From the NCBI GenBank assembly GCA_046759465.1, contig JBHICH010000005.1:1-55869 (forward strand): a DNA stretch of 55,869 nt, in the 5' to 3' direction. The DNA comes from Nitrososphaerales archaeon. GTDB lineage: Archaea; Thermoproteota; Nitrososphaeria; Nitrososphaerales; UBA213. The position numbers and the translations under genes were made by a program. Numbering within the stretch: the stretch's first letter is position 1; each line of letters opens with the position of its first letter. The notes beneath the pieces are model-generated. The model had not been told where the DNA came from. It did no database searches and saw only the letters and a program-made list of their open reading frames with translations. Below, piece by piece: positions 30,008 through 55,869 of this stretch.

Positions 30008-30069
30008 AAATAACCACAATGCTTATATCTAGTTTCAAGACAAGTGGGAGAGGGTCAAAAATTCCGACA

Positions 30070-31218
30070 ATGCGACCTAAGCACGATGGACTTGAAGCTA
30101 AGCTCGTGCTTGAGGATGGAAGTGTATTCACTGGCATAGGTTTTGGTTTTCAAAGCAAGATAGCAGGCGAGGTCGTTTTCAATACTGGAATGGTAGGTTA
30201 TACCGAAGCGTTAACAGATCCTTCTTATCGTGGACAAATCTTATGCTTAACATACCCACTTGTGGGAAATTATGGTGTGCCAAGTTACAAAATAAAGGAT
30301 GATCTCGGTCTTCCAAAATATTTCGAGGCTGAGCATATACAGGTAAAGGGACTGATAATACACGAACTATCACCATTAGCAAGTCACTGGGCGAGCGATA
30401 GAACTTTAGATCAGTGGTTATATGACGAAAAGATATTGGGCATTCATGGAATTGACACTAGGGAATTGACAAAGCGGATAAGAGTACAAGGTGTCATGAT
30501 GGGTGCAATGGAAGTTTCAAAAAATGGCATTAGTGACGAATCATTGTTCATGGCCGTGAAGAGCAATGTTAGATACGATGATATCAACTTCATACCAGAA
30601 GTTTCTGCAAAATCTGTGAAGACATATGGCGAACAAGATGAGCGCGTTGTGCTGATAGATACCGGCACAAAGTACAGCATAATTCGCAATATAATGCGAA
30701 GGGGTTACAAAGTTGTTAGGTTGCCATATACAGCAAGCATACAGCAGGTTCTGTCATACGAACCCAAGGGAGTTGTTTTGAGTAATGGTCCAGGAGATCC
30801 CAAATTCTGCAAGGAAACTATAGTGCTGTCGAAAGATTTGATAGAGCGTAGAATTCCAACTCTTGGAATATGCTTGGGAAACCAGATACTTGCACTAGCA
30901 TCAGGAGCAGATACATACAAGTTGAAGTATGGGCACAGAGGGCAGAACAAGCCTTGTGTTGATTTACGAGACGGAAGTGCGTATGTTACAAGTCAGAACC
31001 ACGGATACTGCATAAACCCAGATTCGCTGAAGGGGACAGGTTTCAAGCTCTGGTTCATGAATGCAGATGATAATACTGTGGAAGGAATAATCCATGAGGA
31101 CAGACCAATAATTGCTGTTCAATTTCATCCAGAAGCATCTCCAGGTCCGTATGACTGCAGGTTCGTGTTCGATATGCTTGATAAAATGATCAGAGGTGAG
31201 AAAGTTGCCAAAGCATGA
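30070..31218 (+). CDS. carA: carbamoyl-phosphate synthase small (glutaminase) subunit
   Basis: 382 aa from the ATG at 30070 (MRPKHDGLEAKLVLEDGSVF matches the usual CarA N-terminus). It has the GATase triad context GICLGNQIL and FHPE. Confidence 0.9.
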   Translation: MRPKHDGLEAKLVLEDGSVFTGIGFGFQSKIAGEVVFNTGMVGYTEALTDPSYRGQILCLTYPLVGNYGVPSYKIKDDLGLPKYFEAEHIQVKGLIIHELSPLASHWASDRTLDQWLYDEKILGIHGIDTRELTKRIRVQGVMMGAMEVSKNGISDESLFMAVKSNVRYDDINFIPEVSAKSVKTYGEQDERVVLIDTGTKYSIIRNIMRRGYKVVRLPYTASIQQVLSYEPKGVVLSNGPGDPKFCKETIVLSKDLIERRIPTLGICLGNQILALASGADTYKLKYGHRGQNKPCVDLRDGSAYVTSQNHGYCINPDSLKGTGFKLWFMNADDNTVEGIIHEDRPIIAVQFHPEASPGPYDCRFVFDMLDKMIRGEKVAKA

Positions 31219-34200
31219 ATGGACAAAGAAAGTGTTAGTGTTAGGCAGCGGCGCGATAAAGATCGGAGAAGCAGGCGAAAGTCTCTAAAGAGACCGCCAG
31301 TTCGACTACTCCGGCAGCCAATGCCTTAAAGCACTGAAGGAGGAAGGAGTATCAAGCGTTCTGATCAATCCAAACGTTGCTACGATACAGACGGACACAA
31401 GATTTGCCGATAAAGTGTACTTGCTACCAATAACCCCAGCGTTTGTTGAAAAAGTGCTTCAGCAGGAAAAACCCGATGGAATAATGCTGGCCTTTGGTGG
31501 GCAAACGGCATTGAACTGTGGCGTTGCACTTAGTAAACAGGGCATACTAGATGAATACGGCGTTAAAGTTCTTGGGACTCCAATCGATGGAATCGAATTA
31601 ACTGAAGACAGAAAACTATTCAAGAAAACTATGCTGGAAAATGATATTCCTGTTCCAAGAAGCAACGCAGCTTACAACATGGAAGAAGCTCACAAAATAG
31701 CAAAGGAGATTGGTTACCCTGTAATAATTAGGGTCGCATTCACACTTGGAGGACGTGGCGGTGGTGTCGCCCATAATGAATATGAGTTTACAGAAATTGC
31801 ACAGAGAGGTTTGGCAGCAAGCATGGTTCACCAGATACTTATTGAAGAATACATTGGAGACTTCAAGCAGATCGAGTATGAGGTGATGCGTGATTATAAG
31901 GGGAACAGTGTAACCGTTTGCAATTTGGAAAATCTTCTCGGAATGAAGGTTCACACTGGGGACAACATTGTGGTTGCGCCATCGCAAACACTGAACAATC
32001 ACGAATATCATTTGCTAAGAACTGCTGCGATAAGAGCCACAAGCGCATGCAGTATTGTTGGAGAATGCAACATACAGTTCGCATTATCACCCAAATCTGA
32101 GCAGTATTATGCAATAGAGATCAATGCAAGATTATCAAGATCATCTGCACTTGCATCAAAGGCAACTGGATATCCAATCGCATATATGGCAGCAAAGATC
32201 GTTCTCGGCTATACTCTGCCAGAACTGATAAATAAAATTACAAAAGTTACCACAGCATGCTTTGAACCATCGCTTGATTACCTAGTAGTCAAGTTTCCAA
32301 GATGGGACTTCAGGAAGTTCGAGATGGTGAACAGAAAGATCGGAACACAGATGAAGTCAGTTGGCGAGGTCATGGCAATTGCAAGGAACTTTGAAGAGGC
32401 GGTTCAAAAAGCTGTAAGAATGCTTGACATTGGAATGGATGGATTAACTGGGAATGGCAACGGACTTGCTGATGTGCAGATCGAAGAATTGGAAGACAGG
32501 CTGCTTAATCCTGATGATGAAATAATGTTCGCAGTCGTGGACGCATTACGCAAAGGAATAAGCGTTGATAGGATAAGCAAGGTGTCTTCGATAGATCCAT
32601 GGTTCGTAGCCAAGCTGAATAACGTAGTTGAGTTCGAATCAAAACTAGCAAAATCTGAATTAAACACAGAGATTGTACGAGAAGCAAAGAGGCTAGGATT
32701 TTCCGACAAACGAATAGCTAGGTGCATTGGAATAGAGGAGCCCGAAGTTAGAGAGTTCAGGAAGCAGACAAACATACTGCCTGTTGTAAAACAGATAGAT
32801 ACACTTGCAGCTGAATGGCCAGCCAAGACAAACTATCTCTACCTAACGTATGGAGGTTCAACTGACGACATAGTTTTAGAGAAGGATAGCAGTAGGACGA
32901 TCGTTCTTGGTGCAGGACCGTACAGGATTGGTAGCAGTGTAGAGTTTGACTGGGGAACTGTGAACATGGTGTGGGGATTGAAGGACAATGGAATTAACGA
33001 GGTTGCTGTTATAAACTGCAACCCAGAAACCGTATCAACGGATTACGATGTTTGTGATAGGCTATACTTCGAGGAACTGACTCATGAACGTGTGTTGGAC
33101 ATCTATGAAAAAGAGACGGCTGACGGAATAGTAACCTGTGTTGGAGGACAGGCTGCAAACAACTTGACCCCAAAGCTTGCCAGCAGCGGCGTAAAGATAG
33201 TTGGAACCAACAGTGAGGATGTTGATAGAGCAGAAGACAGGTCGAAGTTCAGCAACCTTCTAGATCAACTGCACATAAAGCAACCAGCTTGGCAAAAGTT
33301 TGCAAACTTTGATGATGCAAAGGTATTTTCAAGAAGTGCTGAATATCCTGTATTGGTAAGGCCATCATACGTTCTCAGCGGAGCAGCAATGAAGGTTGTC
33401 TGGGATGAAAAGCAACTGAAGCAATATCTTACTGAAGCGTCTAGTGTGAGTCCAGAGTATCCAGTTGTAATAAGCAAGTTCATGCTCGATGCTCTTGAAG
33501 TTGAAGTTGACGCCGTTTCAGACGGCTGTCAGGTTATTATCGGCTCGATAATTGAGCATATAGAAACTGCAGGAATCCATTCGGGCGATGCAATGATGGT
33601 CATTCCACCGTGGCGGTTGACAAGAAAGAATGTAGAATCTATAGCTGACTATTCCAACCAGATCGCAAAGGCTCTAAAGATAAAGGGACCATTCAACATA
33701 CAGTATCTTGTAAAGGATGACATCGTGTATGTTATTGAATGCAATGTCAGGGCATCACGCTCTATGCCTTTCGTATCAAAGTTTGTTGGACTAAATCTTA
33801 TTGCGCTTGCTGCTAGAGTCATGAGTGACAAACCCATACCAAAGGAGGCAGAAGATGCATGGCTGAAAACTACCGGTTTCGGAATCAAAGTGCCACAATT
33901 CTCCTTCATGCAACTCGAAGGTGCAGATACCGTGCTTGGTGTAGAAATGCAATCAACCGGAGAGGTCGCGTGCTTTGGCAACACATTTTATGACGCATTA
34001 TCAAAGGCACTGATCGCAGCTGGATACTCCTTACCAACAAAAGGTTCTGCATTAGTTACTGTTGGAGGTTCTGACATGAAGAGCAAAGTGCTACCAATGA
34101 TCTCAATACTAAAATCTATGGGGTTCGATCTGCTTGCAACAGAACATACAGCCGAATTCATGATTGAGAGCGGATTCAATGATACGAAGGTTGTATACAA

Positions 34201-34474
34201 GATCAGTGAACCTGACAGGAAGCCCAACATAATCAGTCTGCTTTATGACAGGGATGTAGATTTCATCGTTAACATACCAAGTACGTCGACACTTGAGAAG
34301 TATGTTGGAATGCTTTACGACGAATACCTGATCAGAAGGAAAGCTGTAGAGATGGGATTGCCTGTTTTAACAACTCTCGAATCTGCAAACTCGTTTGCAA
34401 AGACACTTGAATGGTTGAGGAATAATGAACCAAACATAAGCTCGCTTAAAGATTACATGCAGTTCGACCATTAA
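31205..34474 (+). CDS. carB: carbamoyl-phosphate synthase large subunit, frame interrupted by a 21-nt insert with in-frame TAA
   Basis: A TTG at 31205 gives MPKHEWTKKVLVLGSGAIKIGEAGE, the canonical CarB N-terminus. The sequence then reads SL*RDRQ (31280-31300) and resumes in frame with FDYSGSQCLKALKEEG... through to the stop at 34474. The ORF track sees only the 1019-aa part from 31415. The start overlaps carA by 14 nt. Confidence 0.88.
31280..31300 (+). other. 21-nt in-frame insert in carB (candidate BHB-type mini-intron)
   Basis: AGTCTCTAAAGAGACCGCCAG. It is flanked and structured as GGCG-AAA-GTCTC-TAAA-GAGAC-CGCC-AGT. The stop codon 31286-31288 sits in the TAAA loop. Confidence 0.5.
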
Positions 34475-55690: not shown

Positions 55691-55735
55691 AAATAAGCTG
55701 TGATGACTCTGAATTATTCGGCGCACTCAAAAGTA

Positions 55736-55825
55736 AGCCTCGGGCGGGCTTCGATCCCGCGACCCACAGCTTACAAGGCTCAACCATAAAATGTCTGTTG
55801 CTCTACTAGGCTGAGCTACCGAGGC
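55736..55825 (-). tRNA. tRNA-Thr (anticodon UGU) with a 16-nt intron at non-canonical position 30/31
   Basis: Manual fold: acceptor GCCTCGG/CCGAGGC, D arm GCTC-AGCCTAGTA-GAGC, T arm GCGGG-ATCGAAG-CCCGC. Removing ACATTTTATGGTTGAG gives the anticodon arm ACAGC-CTTGTAA-GCTGT. The pre-tRNA forms CAAC-AG|A...GTTG-AG|C, a bulge-helix-bulge. Confidence 0.8.
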
Positions 55826-55869
55826 TCGCATTATTGGCAATTGGGCGGCATTTAAAATCTTACGCAATG

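What the first reader, a model, noticed from the sequence alone, without database searches (positions are those of the whole stretch)
31263..31314. carB is split by a 21-nt stop-containing insert that folds like a bulge-helix-bulge splicing motif (candidate protein-coding mini-intron)
SEEN: The CarB reading frame starts at a TTG at 31205 (MPKHEWTKKVLVLGSGAIKIGEAGE). Between the Glu and Phe of the conserved A/G-E-F-D-Y-S-G ATP-grasp motif there are exactly 21 extra nt (31280-31300, AGTCTCTAAAGAGACCGCCAG). This insert carries an in-frame TAA at 31286-31288. After the insert the frame continues uninterrupted for about 1,060 codons (FDYSGSQCLKALKEEG... to 34474). The ORF track therefore reports only a 1019-aa fragment. 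The local RNA can fold as a 4-bp helix GGCG(31274-77)/CGCC(31295-98), a 3-nt bulge AAA(31278-80), and an inner helix GTCTC/GAGAC closed by a TAAA loop that holds the stop codon. A second 3-nt stretch AGT(31299-301) follows. Cutting after the second nt of each 3-nt stretch removes exactly 31280-31300 and recreates GGC GAA TTC GAC, which encodes G-E-F-D. The same H(4 bp)-NN|N geometry reproduces the independent tRNA-Thr intron in this window (CAAC-AG|A ... GTTG-AG|C, 55736-55825). ESTABLISHED: Archaeal splicing endonucleases cut BHB and relaxed HBh' motifs. Such introns are known in tRNA/rRNA and in cbf5 pre-mRNA of Crenarchaeota. INFERENCE: This carB mRNA may need endonuclease/ligase splicing to make a functional enzyme. 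CAVEAT: The outer helix is poor, with only a distal TCGGAG(31263-68)/CTCCGG(31309-14) pairing, so this is at best a relaxed motif.
Basis: partly seen in the sequence, partly recalled or inferred. Interest (0 to 1): 0.85.

Follow-up and report, generated by a model that had tools for sequence, protein, structure and literature searches.

The report
Spliced mini-intron inside archaeal carB gene
The 21-base, stop-containing insert in this ammonia-oxidising archaeon's carbamoyl-phosphate synthetase gene is a conserved tRNA-type (bulge-helix-bulge) intron that has to be cut out of the messenger RNA, which is very rare for a prokaryotic protein gene and has left this essential enzyme mis-annotated in many public genomes.

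Summary
Window 31280-31300 (21 nt, in-frame TAA) interrupts carB between Glu25 and Phe26. Removing it gives an N-terminus colinear with E. coli CarB.

It is neither an artefact nor a pseudogene. An insert of 16-29 nt sits at the same codon boundary in 150 independent Nitrososphaerota (Thaumarchaeota) contigs. None can be translated through: 55 shift the frame and all 95 with a length divisible by three carry a stop.

The insert has the anatomy of an archaeal splicing-endonuclease substrate:
- a 4-bp helix (GGCG/CGYY) joins exon 1 to the intron's 3' end;
- two 3-nt bulges flank that helix;
- an inner hairpin shows abundant compensatory changes;
- exon codons that build the helices are frozen at synonymous sites only in genes that carry the insert.

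A tRNA-Thr in the same window carries a 16-nt intron of the same design.

Public run assemblies hold contigs that lack exactly the predicted intron. One of 4742 nt has no mismatch to the insert-bearing Ca. Nitrosocosmicus franklandus-type contigs. I could not check the library type of those runs.

Best reading: a relaxed BHB pre-mRNA intron removed by EndA and RtcB. It is a new member of a kind previously reported in mRNA only for crenarchaeal cbf5 and one Haloferax 5' UTR.

The parts
30019..31218 (+). carA, the glutamine-hydrolysing carbamoyl-phosphate synthase small subunit. Its last 14 nt overlap the carB start.
   Evidence: NCBIfam TIGR01368, 437 bits against a cut-off of 307. ORF list.
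31205..31279 (+). carB exon 1: TTG start plus 24 codons, MPKHEWTKKVLVLGSGAIKIGEAGE.
   Evidence: Translation. The amino acids are invariant across insert-bearing relatives while codons -12 to -7 vary synonymously, so exon 1 is under protein-coding selection. Matches CarB profile positions 2-26.
31280..31300 (+). The 21-nt intron, AGTCTCTAAAGAGACCGCCAG.
   Evidence: Homologous 16-29-nt inserts sit at the same codon boundary in 150 loci. The exact excision product is seen in relatives.
31301..34474 (+). carB exon 2: FDYSGSQCLKALKEEG... 1057 codons plus the stop.
   Evidence: TIGR01369 gives 1320 bits for the part from 31415.
31274..31277 (+). Central 4-bp helix H, 5' strand (GGCG, in exon 1). 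It pairs with 31295-31298.
   Evidence: 96% of cells are paired across 95 distinct sequences, GC or GU only apart from 15 G.A at the outermost pair. The Gly codon is fixed as GGC in 37 of 38 insert-bearing genes, against entropy 1.78 in genes without the insert.
31278..31280 (+). 5' bulge B1 (AAA). The predicted cut lies between 31279 and 31280.
   Evidence: B1 is A-R-A in 147 of 148 loci. The cut position is fixed by unambiguous junctions in L212/L213 and L201/L122.
31281..31294 (+). Inner hairpin h': GTCTC (31281-85), loop TAAA (31286-89, containing the in-frame TAA 31286-88), GAGAC (31290-94).
   Evidence: Pairs 1-4 are about 100% paired, with 2, 26, 15 and 35 sequences changed on both sides. 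There are 77 distinct variants. RNAalifold predicts the hairpin de novo.
31295..31298 (+). Central helix H, 3' strand (CGCC, at the intron's 3' end).
31299..31301 (+). 3' bulge B2 (AGT). The predicted cut lies between 31300 and 31301.
   Evidence: B2 is A-[A/G/T]-T in all loci. Junction test.
31263..31272 (+). Outer helix, 5' strand: TCGGAG (31263-68) plus A31270, G31271 and C31272.
   Evidence: The RNAalifold consensus pairs UCGGAG with CUCCGG, then A-U, G-C and C-G. Ile ATC is fixed in 36 of 38 and Gly GGA in 38 of 38 insert-bearing genes only.
31304..31314 (+). Outer helix, 3' strand: G31304, C31306, T31307 and CTCCGG (31309-14).
   Evidence: Asp GAC is fixed in 37 of 38, Tyr TAC in 38 of 38 and Ser TCC in 36 of 38 insert-bearing genes. 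These codons are relaxed in lineages without the insert.
55735..55826 (-). tRNA-Thr(UGU) gene with a 16-nt BHB intron (55779-55794) at a non-canonical position. It serves as an in-window control for the same splicing rule.
   Evidence: Sequence CAAC-AG|A-CAU-UUU-AUG-GUUG-AG|C. After excision ARAGORN calls a 76-nt tRNA-Thr(tgt).

Best explanation
Window 31280-31300 is a protein-splicing-type (bulge-helix-bulge) intron in the carB pre-mRNA of a Nitrososphaerota archaeon.

Shown here:
- The carA-carB transcript can fold so that GGCG at the end of exon 1 pairs with CGCC at the 3' end of the insert.
- A 3-nt bulge (AAA) sits on the 5' side of this helix, before a covarying 5-bp hairpin.
- A 3-nt stretch (AGU) sits on the 3' side, before an imperfect but conserved exon-exon helix (UCGGAG/CUCCGG plus three more pairs).
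- Excision between nt 2 and nt 3 of each 3-nt stretch joins GAA to UUC and restores the universal ...GEAGE-FDYSG... motif and a 1082-codon CarB.

Inferred from established knowledge of archaeal tRNA and rRNA splicing:
- The heterotetrameric (alpha-beta)2 splicing endonuclease EndA makes the two cuts. This is the type found in Thaumarchaeota and the one that accepts relaxed motifs outside tRNA.
- The cuts leave a 2',3'-cyclic phosphate and a 5'-OH end.
- RtcB ligase joins the exons, and the 21-nt intron is released, probably as a circle.
- Unspliced mRNA terminates at UAA after 27 codons and yields no enzyme.

Splicing is therefore obligatory for CarB synthesis from this gene, and thus, unless another copy lies elsewhere in the genome, for arginine and pyrimidine synthesis. 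The intron appears old within the phylum and to have been lost precisely several times.
For: (1) Conservation. An insert at exactly this codon boundary occurs in 38 of 76 loci of a GTDB scan that was blind to this site, and in 112 of 120 metagenome hits. Lengths are 16-29 nt.

(2) It is never translatable. Of 150 inserts, 55 shift the frame and all 95 of length 3n carry an in-frame stop. Exon 1 nevertheless keeps its amino acids with synonymous variation, and exon 2 is intact.

(3) Structure.
- There are 77 distinct inserts, all with the layout H(4 bp)-ARA-hairpin-H-ANU.
- The covariation score is 0.227 against 0.122 in shuffles (0 of 500 reach it). 111 cells are changed on both sides, against at most 9 when partners are slid.
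- RNAalifold recovers the same structure de novo.

(4) Exon synonymous sites that build H and the outer helix are frozen only where the insert is present (GGA 38/38, GGC 37/38, GAC 37/38, TAC 38/38, TCC 36/38). They are relaxed in lineages without the insert.

(5) Excision products.
- L212 (Logan SRR30543910) has no mismatch over its 4742 nt to six insert-bearing Ca. N. franklandus-type contigs, apart from a single 26-nt gap that equals the predicted intron.
- L201 against L122 shows the same for a 22-nt intron.
- In both pairs only the canonical cut positions reproduce the junction.
- L219 and L220 against L221 and L222 lack a 25-nt intron.

(6) The same window has a tRNA-Thr with a 16-nt intron of identical design at a non-canonical position.

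(7) Literature. (alpha-beta)2 EndA occurs in Thaumarchaeota (PMC5829648). There is precedent for relaxed-motif pre-mRNA introns in cbf5 (PMC2738675).
Against: - There is no transcript, proteomic or enzymatic evidence for this window's own organism.
- The RNA origin of the contigs that lack the insert is inferred. I could not look up the library types of SRR30543910, SRR29193635, SRR5413683 and JGI 3300004803.
- In the third pair (L219/L220 against L221/L222) the junction reads GAA where the canonical cut predicts GAG. That needs either an A/G strain difference at a demonstrably polymorphic site or a cut shifted by one or two nt.
- The helix next to the 3' cut is imperfect. The 3' 'bulge' is really a 5 x 1 internal loop in many sequences, and 15 of 95 sequences have G.A at the outer pair of H. 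The motif is therefore relaxed, not canonical.
- The bare motif is not rarer than chance in this window.
- A second carB elsewhere in this genome cannot be excluded.
Confidence: 0.92

Rival explanations
1. Sequencing or assembly artefact, or a decaying carB pseudogene.
For: An in-frame stop 27 codons into an essential gene looks like an error or a pseudogene. Gene callers report only a truncated ORF.
Against: - The same-site insert is present in 150 independent assemblies from many projects.
- Exon 1 and the more than 1000 codons of exon 2 are under purifying selection.
- The insert has conserved, covarying structure.
- Complete genomes of cultured autotrophs carry it: Ca. N. franklandus and Ca. 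N. oleophilus both have truncated annotated CarB.
Confidence: 0.01
2. Programmed translational bypassing, as in phage T4 gene 60. The ribosome takes off at the Glu codon, skips the hairpin, lands before TTC, and no RNA cleavage occurs.
For: A hairpin starts right after the last exon-1 codon, and stop codons lie in or near it. These features superficially resemble the gene-60 gap.
Against: - There is no matched take-off and landing codon. The take-off codon is GAR, but the last insert triplet is CAG, CAA, TAA, AAA, AAG, TAT, CAT or AAT.
- Bypassing does not explain the conserved 4-bp helix between exon 1 and the insert's 3' end, nor the exact 3-nt spacers.
- It does not explain the frozen synonymous sites in exon 2 that pair with exon 1.
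- Nucleic-acid molecules that lack exactly the insert exist in public runs, which bypassing would not produce.
Confidence: 0.02
3. The insert is a real, structured element, but the near-identical contigs without it are genomic variants (very recent precise deletions), not cDNA. On this reading splicing is still unobserved.
For: - The library types could not be verified.
- Genomic lineages that truly lack the insert do exist: L203, L204, L134, L210, L211, most Nitrosopumilus and the Nitrosocaldales.
- The L219/L221 junction differs by one nt from the canonical prediction.
Against: - L212 shows no mismatch over its 4742 nt to the insert-bearing strain. A spontaneous deletion falling exactly at the two BHB cut sites in a clonal culture is far less likely than RNA-seq of spliced mRNA.
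- Lineages that lost the insert long ago show relaxed flank codons. L201, L212 and L219 keep the insert-type flanks.
- L220 ends in a T7 run 27 nt after the carB stop, as a transcript end would.
- Even if this rival were true, the comparative evidence still requires removal at the RNA level.
Confidence: 0.06
4. Two-piece or N-terminally truncated CarB. Translation restarts downstream (for example GTG 31415) and the enzyme works without residues 1-63, or with a separate 27-aa peptide.
For: Database annotation uniformly reports such truncated proteins of 1006-1069 aa.
Against: - The missing part is the first beta-strand and Gly-rich loop of the ATP-grasp N-domain. It is colinear with E. coli and human CPS structures.
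- The break falls inside the conserved GEAGEFDYSG motif.
- Exon 1 is conserved as protein in its own frame from a start codon that overlaps carA.
- Annotated starts differ arbitrarily between relatives, and some read out-of-frame through exon 1, for example MELLRSEKQAKVNYNDRY....
Confidence: 0.01

Closest known systems
The cbf5 (pseudouridine synthase) pre-mRNA intron of Crenarchaeota (Watanabe et al. 2002; Yokobori et al. 2009, PMC2738675)
   Same: - A short BHB-type intron lies inside a protein-coding gene and interrupts a functionally essential motif.
- It often has a relaxed cleavage motif.
- It is attributed to the broad-specificity heterotetrameric endonuclease.
- Its distribution is patchy, with inferred secondary precise losses.
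   Different: - The gene differs: a central metabolic enzyme rather than an RNA-modification enzyme.
- The phylum differs: Nitrososphaerota, where cbf5 was scored as lacking an intron in C. symbiosum and N. maritimus.
- Here the intron sits 25 codons from the start of a gene that overlaps carA.
- Splicing of cbf5 was shown experimentally. Here it is inferred from comparison and from public assemblies.
The BHB intron in the 5' UTR of Haloferax volcanii HVO_1309 mRNA (PMC7714728)
   Same: It is an mRNA substrate of the archaeal splicing endonuclease outside tRNA and rRNA.
   Different: That intron lies in an untranslated leader of a euryarchaeon and does not interrupt the reading frame. Its cleavage was shown in vitro and in vivo.
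Non-canonical-position tRNA mini-introns of TACK archaea, such as the tRNA-Thr intron in this window
   Same: - The architecture is identical: a 4-bp helix between the 5' exon and the intron's 3' end, A-R-N bulges, a short inner hairpin, and a length of 16-29 nt.
- The predicted cut positions are the same.
- The machinery is presumably the same.
   Different: The host RNA is a translated mRNA, so splicing competes with ribosomes. The outer helix is built from codons and is imperfect.
Unconventional cytoplasmic splicing of HAC1/XBP1 mRNA by IRE1 and tRNA ligase/RtcB in eukaryotes
   Same: A small intron (26 nt in XBP1) is removed from an mRNA by a protein endonuclease acting on stem-loops and by a tRNA-type ligase, which changes the reading frame or product.
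   Different: The endonuclease (IRE1) and the recognition motif are unrelated. XBP1 splicing is a regulated stress switch, and no regulation is shown here. This comparison rests on my own knowledge.
Translational bypass of the 50-nt gap in phage T4 gene 60
   Same: A short untranslatable gap with a hairpin and a stop lies inside an essential ORF.
   Different: There are no matched take-off and landing codons, and molecules with the insert excised exist. See the rival explanations.

Membership tests
Archaeal splicing-endonuclease (BHB-type) intron | A central 4-bp helix separates the two cleavage sites. | tested here: met
   GGCG (31274-77) pairs with CGCC (31295-98). 96% of cells are paired across 95 distinct sequences, GC or GU, with 15 G.A at the outermost pair.
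Archaeal splicing-endonuclease (BHB-type) intron | Two 3-nt bulges lie on opposite strands, immediately flanking the central helix. | tested here: met
   The 5' bulge A-R-A is closed on both sides in essentially all sequences. The 3' stretch A-N-U is always exactly 3 nt between H and the first exon-2 base.
Archaeal splicing-endonuclease (BHB-type) intron | Cleavage after nt 2 of each bulge gives a precise, functional exon-exon junction. | tested here: met
   - It restores GAR-TTY (E-F) in all 148 parsed loci. Bulge 1 nt 2 is always R, while bulge 2 nt 2 is A, G or T.
- In L212/L213 and L201/L122 only these cut positions reproduce the observed junction.
- One pair (L219/L221) deviates by one nt.
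- The same rule turns the window's tRNA precursor into tRNA-Thr(UGU), although in that tRNA a one-nt shift gives the same product.
Archaeal splicing-endonuclease (BHB-type) intron | The inner helix h' is maintained by compensatory substitutions. | tested here: met
   All seven inner pairs show changes on both sides. Pairs 1-4 are 99-100% paired. RNAalifold agrees.
Strict canonical hBHBh' motif, as needed by homomeric alpha4 or alpha'2 endonucleases | A continuous outer helix stacks directly on the 3' bulge. | tested here: not met
   The position next to the 3' bulge pairs only when the Ala codon ends in A or G. It is followed by a bulged Y and an A.A mismatch. The consensus shows a 5 x 1 internal loop. 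This is therefore the relaxed class (HBh'-like with a distal outer helix).
Archaeal splicing-endonuclease (BHB-type) intron | A precise excision product exists as nucleic acid. | tested here: met
   L212 (no mismatch over 4742 nt, one 26-nt gap), L201 (22-nt gap) and L219/L220 (25-nt gap) match insert-bearing partners. The RNA origin of these runs is not verified.
Archaeal splicing-endonuclease (BHB-type) intron | The host encodes a broad-specificity splicing endonuclease and an RtcB ligase. | not tested
   Neither gene was looked for in the window. The literature reports (alpha-beta)2 EndA in Thaumarchaeota (PMC5829648). The non-canonical tRNA-Thr intron in the window implies such an enzyme.
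Archaeal splicing-endonuclease (BHB-type) intron | EndA cleaves at the two sites and RtcB ligates. | not testable with these tools
   This needs an in vitro cleavage and ligation assay, or EndA depletion.
Programmed translational bypass (T4 gene 60 type) | Matched take-off and landing codons flank the gap. | tested here: not met
   The take-off codon is GAR. The last triplets of the insert are CAG, CAA, TAA, AAA, AAG, TAT, CAT or AAT.
Glutamine-hydrolysing carbamoyl-phosphate synthase large subunit (CarB) | A full-length match to the equivalog profile, including the N-terminal ATP-grasp subdomain. | tested here: met
   The ORF from 31415 scores 1320 bits on TIGR01369 positions 63-1051. The spliced N-terminus covers positions 2-119. 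It is colinear with the PDB 1BXR chain residues 1-118.

The most novel reading that the evidence does not exclude
The intron is not just tolerated but used. It lies 25 codons into a gene whose start overlaps carA, and every version blocks translation by a stop or a frameshift. EndA/RtcB splicing may therefore act as a kinetic or regulated gate on CarB synthesis, and so on arginine and pyrimidine supply, in globally abundant ammonia oxidisers. It may also be the visible tip of a wider, unannotated set of mRNA mini-introns in Nitrososphaerota. On this reading, its apparent retention across the phylum, with exon codons frozen to keep the fold, reflects function rather than mere difficulty of loss.
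Probability: 0.2. Interest if true: 0.9.

Novelty: new member of a known kind. Interest (0 to 1): 0.8.

Why it matters
Endonuclease-spliced introns inside prokaryotic protein-coding genes are extremely rare. A 2020 paper (PMC7714728) counts only crenarchaeal cbf5 and one haloarchaeal 5' UTR.

This finding adds a second coding-region case. It sits in a core metabolic enzyme and is spread through a phylum that dominates nitrification in soils and waters.

The practical consequences are these:
- CarB is mis-annotated (truncated, or with out-of-frame N-termini) in many Nitrososphaerota records in public databases, including complete genomes of cultured Ca. Nitrosocosmicus strains. Metabolic reconstructions and pseudogene calls there are wrong.
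- Gene finders for archaea need a BHB-aware step.
- The intron gives a natural, phylogenetically rich data set: 77 sequence variants, lengths of 16-29 nt and several apparent independent precise losses. It can be used to study what a relaxed-specificity EndA recognises in a non-tRNA context, how splicing coexists with coupled translation, and how such introns are lost.
- It is directly testable in cultured strains.

Tried and rejected
- **Repeat or mobile element.** The hairpin core occurs only once in the window, so a repeated-element origin is not supported.
- **Rfam.** No family covers the region. Only one tRNA passed the gathering threshold, and the intron-containing tRNA-Thr was missed.
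- **Motif statistics alone.** The loose BHB pattern is as common in shuffled sequence. A scan for other 'ORF-joining' BHB candidates in the window gave 50 hits, mostly noise, and I did not pursue it.
- **Exact look-ups of the window's own proteins.** Neither CarA nor the truncated CarB ORF is on record. No sequencing run of this organism could therefore be examined.
- **Short N-terminal protein searches for spliced fragments**. They found mostly lineages that truly lack the insert. P0046 and P0016 turned out to belong to the L134 clade, which lacks the insert and has relaxed codons. No spliced fragment was found for the abundant soil Nitrososphaeraceae family.
- **Library type.** Paper searches for SRR29193635, SRR30543910, SRR5413683 and the JGI sample ids found nothing.
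- **Prior description.** Literature searches for a carB intron in Thaumarchaeota found none. This does not cover subscription-only papers.
- **Rivals considered and rejected.** Translational bypass, read-through as a 7-aa insertion, and a split protein. See the rival explanations.
Full report
**1. The observation**

- carA (30019-31218; TIGR01368, 437 bits) is followed by a TTG at 31205.
- That TTG opens MPKHEWTKKVLVLGSGAIKIGEAGE.
- Then come 21 nt, AGTCTCTAAAGAGACCGCCAG (31280-31300), with an in-frame TAA at 31286-88.
- An uninterrupted frame runs from 31301 to 34474.
- The ORF lister reports only 31415..34474. That ORF matches the CarB equivalog profile from position 63 onward.
- A translation with the 21 nt removed covers profile positions 2-119 and aligns residue for residue with E. 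coli CarB 1-118.
- RNAfold's minimum-energy structure of 31255-31325 already contains the proposed elements, with z = -2.33.

By itself the fold is not remarkable. A loose scan for the same geometry finds about 250 matches in the window and 191-253 in ten shuffles.

**2. Comparison with relatives**

A protein-guided scan of one genome per GTDB species used peptide patterns far from this site. It returned 80 Nitrososphaerota (Thaumarchaeota) carB loci.
- 38 of these, plus the window, carry an insert at exactly the Glu|Phe boundary. 38 do not.
- A pattern scan of JGI metagenome contigs allowed a gap of 1-31 nt between insert-type exon flanks. It gave 120 more stretches, 112 of them with an insert.

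Insert lengths are 16, 18, 19, 20, 21, 22, 23, 24, 26, 27 and 29 nt. Of 150 insert-bearing loci, 55 shift the reading frame and all 95 whose length is a multiple of three carry an in-frame stop. Not one can be read through.

Exon 1 is clearly protein-coding in these lineages. Codons -12 to -7 keep G-S-G-A-I-K while varying synonymously. This excludes an assembly error and a decaying pseudogene.

**3. Anatomy**

All 148 parsed inserts share one plan:
- exon-1 GGCG (helix H, 5' strand);
- a bulge A-R-A;
- a hairpin of 2-7 bp with a 3-12-nt loop;
- CG[C/T][C/T/A] (helix H, 3' strand);
- A-[A/G/T], then the first T of the Phe codon.

There are 77 distinct versions, with inner stems such as GTCTC/GAGAC (the window), GTCTG/CAGAC, GTCG/CGAC, GCCAG/CTGGC, GCTGG/CCAGC, GCCGC/GCGGC, GTCAC/GTGAC, GTTAGA/TCTAAC, TCTG/CAGA and CCTT/AAGG.

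I counted pairs on an end-anchored alignment of 95 distinct sequences (A1). The arms were taken from the conserved flanks and not optimised per sequence. The results:
- 94.7% of cells are paired.
- 111 cells are changed on both sides, against 35 +/- 4 in shuffles (0 of 500 reach the observed value) and at most 9 when the partners are slid by 1-3 columns.
- Inner pairs 1-4 are 99-100% paired.
- Helix H is 96% paired and switches only between GC and GU, apart from 15 G.A at its outermost pair.

RNAalifold, run on a plain MAFFT alignment of 30 diverse sequences, predicts the same structure. It also predicts an outer helix UCGGAG/CUCCGG extended by A-U, G-C and C-G pairs.

**4. Exon codons are constrained by the fold**

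In the site-blind GTDB set, synonymous positions that build H and the outer helix are frozen only in insert-bearing genes:

| Codon | Insert-bearing genes | Genes without the insert |
|---|---|---|
| Ile -6 | ATC 36/38 | variable |
| Gly -5 | GGA 38/38 | entropy 1.79 bits |
| Gly -2 | GGC 37/38 | entropy 1.78 bits |
| Asp +2 | GAC 37/38 | mostly GAT |
| Tyr +3 | TAC 38/38 | mostly TAT |
| Ser +4 | TCC 36/38 | mostly TCT |

Other Gly codons nearby (-12, +5, +16) stay variable in the same insert-bearing genes.

Genomic contigs that truly lack the insert show relaxed codons.
- Nitrososphaerales L203 and L204 (8.9 and 69.9 kb) have ATA GGC/GGT GAG GCx GGC/GGA ... TAT.
- L210 and L211 have GGA at Gly -2.

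Next to the 3' cut there is at best one A-U pair, then a bulged pyrimidine. In the standard terminology this is a relaxed motif, not a strict hBHBh'.

**5. Cut positions**

The second base of the 5' bulge is always a purine, because it is the wobble base of the Glu codon. The second base of the 3' bulge is A, G or T. Cutting after base 2 of each bulge always restores GAR-TTY. Cutting one base earlier would give Asp in the eight loci whose 3' bulge is ATT.

The same rule applied to the tRNA gene at 55735-55826 (- strand) removes 16 nt (55779-55794). The element there reads CAAC-AG|A-CAU-UUU-AUG-GUUG-AG|C. The result is a canonical 76-nt tRNA-Thr(UGU). In that tRNA a one-base shift gives the same product, so it shows the architecture rather than the exact register.

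ARAGORN's tRNA-Lys call on the precursor is an artefact of the intron, and Rfam missed the gene. A tRNA intron at a non-canonical position implies a broad-specificity endonuclease. The literature places the (alpha-beta)2 type in Thaumarchaeota (PMC5829648).

**6. Molecules that lack exactly the insert**

*(a) Ca. Nitrosocosmicus franklandus.*
- The 90% cluster of its CarB holds the truncated database proteins VFJ12727.1 (1033 aa) and WP_232038044.1 (1055 aa), from the 2.84-Mb genome.
- The same cluster holds a 1096-aa full-length protein, P0389.
- P0389 is encoded on Logan contig SRR30543910_662 (L212, 4742 nt).
- L212 has no mismatch to any of six insert-bearing contigs from other runs (L213-L218; L213, L214 and L216 cover its full 4742 nt), apart from one 26-nt gap.
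- That gap is AGTTAGAATATTTATCTAACCGCAAT, exactly the predicted intron.
- Only the canonical cut pair reproduces the junction GGCGAG|TTTGAC.

*(b) L201 against L122.*
- Logan contig SRR29193635_78562 (L201) lacks the 22-nt insert of JGI contig L122.
- It shows no mismatch for several hundred bases on either side of the junction (none between 1012 and 1449) and 98.3% identity overall.
- The junction is again unambiguous.

*(c) L219 and L220 against L221 and L222.*
- JGI contig Ga0058862_10077476 (L219) and Logan SRR5413683_2553 (L220) encode a full-length 1123-aa CarB, P0478.
- They lack the 25-nt insert of the 99.3%-identical L221 and L222.
- Here the junction reads GAA where the canonical cut of L221 predicts GAG.
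- This is either a strain difference at the bulge/wobble position, which flips A/G between otherwise identical inserts elsewhere in the data, or a cut shifted by one or two bases. It is unresolved.

L220 ends in a T7 run 27 nt after the carB stop, as an archaeal transcript end might.

I could not establish the library type of any of these runs. A precise 26-nt deletion at the two predicted cut sites, in a sequence otherwise free of mismatches to a cultured strain, is most simply spliced mRNA captured by RNA-seq.

**7. Distribution**

A neighbour-joining tree of the first 400 exon-2 residues places the insert as follows.

Present in:
- the window's clade (window, L001, L024, L070, L074);
- most Nitrososphaerales, including Nitrosocosmicus;
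- Nitrosotenuis;
- a few Nitrosopumilus subclades;
- deep branches whose neighbouring genes cluster with 'Nitrososphaerales/Thaumarchaeota archaeon' MAG proteins (L163, L197).

Absent from:
- Nitrosocaldales and Nitrosothermus;
- most Nitrosopumilus;
- scattered sublineages (L203/L204, L134/L210/L211, L033).

The simplest history is an old intron with several precise losses, as was argued for cbf5 (PMC2738675). The tree is a quick NJ tree, so the number of losses is only approximate. Two still more distant insert-bearing loci (L096 and L185, 52-55% CarB identity) could not be assigned to a taxon.

**8. Mechanism**

Shown here:
- the fold, its conservation and its covariation;
- the exact junction;
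- the impossibility of translating through the insert;
- the existence of excised molecules.

Inferred from established archaeal tRNA and rRNA splicing:
- EndA cleaves in the two bulges.
- RtcB joins the exons.
- The intron is released.
- Unspliced mRNA ends translation at UAA after 27 codons.

Speculative: splicing must compete with ribosomes that arrive from the overlapping carA. The intron could therefore act as a gate on CarB output.

**9. Rivals**

Artefact and pseudogene are excluded (sections 2-4).

Translational bypass fails for three reasons. There is no matched take-off and landing codon. It does not explain the exon-intron helix or the frozen exon codons. Excised molecules exist.

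A truncated or two-piece enzyme is implausible. The break lies inside the conserved GEAGEFDYSG motif of the N-terminal ATP-grasp subdomain. The annotated 'starts' also differ arbitrarily between relatives. Some read out of frame through exon 1 and the insert, for example MELLRSEKQAKVNYNDRYFDYSG... in a large Nitrososphaeraceae family.

**10. Known or new**

Full-text searches found no description of a carB intron in Thaumarchaeota. A 2020 study states that, besides its own Haloferax 5'-UTR case, only the crenarchaeal cbf5 mRNA intron had been reported (PMC7714728). Subscription-only literature was not searchable.

I therefore file this as a new member of a known kind: a relaxed BHB pre-mRNA intron, in a new gene and a new phylum. 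It has unusually rich comparative support, and it has an annotation consequence for many public genome records.

Noticed in passing
window 55735-55826 (- strand); intron 55779-55794: ARAGORN calls this gene tRNA-Lys(ttt), and Rfam's tRNA model misses it at the gathering threshold. After removal of a 16-nt BHB intron at a non-canonical position in the anticodon stem, it is a clean 76-nt tRNA-Thr(UGU).
   Followed up: yes
Public proteins P0122/P0386 (Ca. Nitrosocosmicus franklandus WP_232038044.1, VFJ12727.1), P0415 (Ca. N. oleophilus ALI37115.1, WP_231100065.1), and P0174 and about 70 clusters of 1076-aa Nitrososphaeraceae 'carB': CarB of insert-bearing lineages is annotated either N-terminally truncated (1006-1069 aa) or with a false N-terminus read out of frame through exon 1 and the insert (MELLRSEKQAKVNYNDRYFDYSG...). 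None is flagged as interrupted.
   Followed up: partly
L219/L220 against L221/L222, at the exon junction: The contigs without the insert read GGCGAA|TTTGAC. The canonical cut of the 99.3%-identical insert-bearing contigs predicts GGCGAG|TTTGAC. This is either an A/G strain difference at the bulge/wobble base or a cut shifted by 1-2 nt.
   Followed up: partly
All insert-bearing loci (L001-L200 set and the window): Every one of the 95 inserts whose length is a multiple of three contains an in-frame stop codon, either in the hairpin loop or as TAA at the 3' end. This may reflect selection against translating unspliced mRNA into a CarB with an insertion, or it may simply be shared descent.
   Followed up: no
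L096 (19-nt insert) and L185 (16-nt insert, the shortest, with only a 2-bp inner stem): Two insert-bearing carB loci have only 52-55% CarB identity to the window and branch outside all named groups. Their taxon could not be determined. They suggest the intron extends beyond the ammonia oxidisers.
   Followed up: partly
L096 1381-2442 (+), directly upstream of its carB: A 353-aa ORF has motifs that, from memory, resemble a LAGLIDADG homing endonuclease (LVGHVFGDGYVG..., FLKAFFDDDGSV). The exact sequence is not in the protein collection.
   Followed up: no
L201 1614-1637: The Logan contig ends in the Illumina adapter sequence AGATCGGAAGAGCGTCGTGTAGGG. Logan assemblies are built from untrimmed reads, so contig ends there should not be read as biology.
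   Followed up: yes
L202 (JGI Ga0126317_10116664) and L062, exon 2: Both have an in-frame stop within the first 400 codons of exon 2. L202 also lacks the insert but keeps insert-type flank codons. These could be sequencing errors, pseudogenes or further interruptions.
   Followed up: no
window 31205-31218: The carB TTG start overlaps the last 14 nt of carA, which suggests translational coupling. Ribosomes finishing carA would then reach the intron only 75 nt later, which matters for how splicing and translation are ordered.
   Followed up: no
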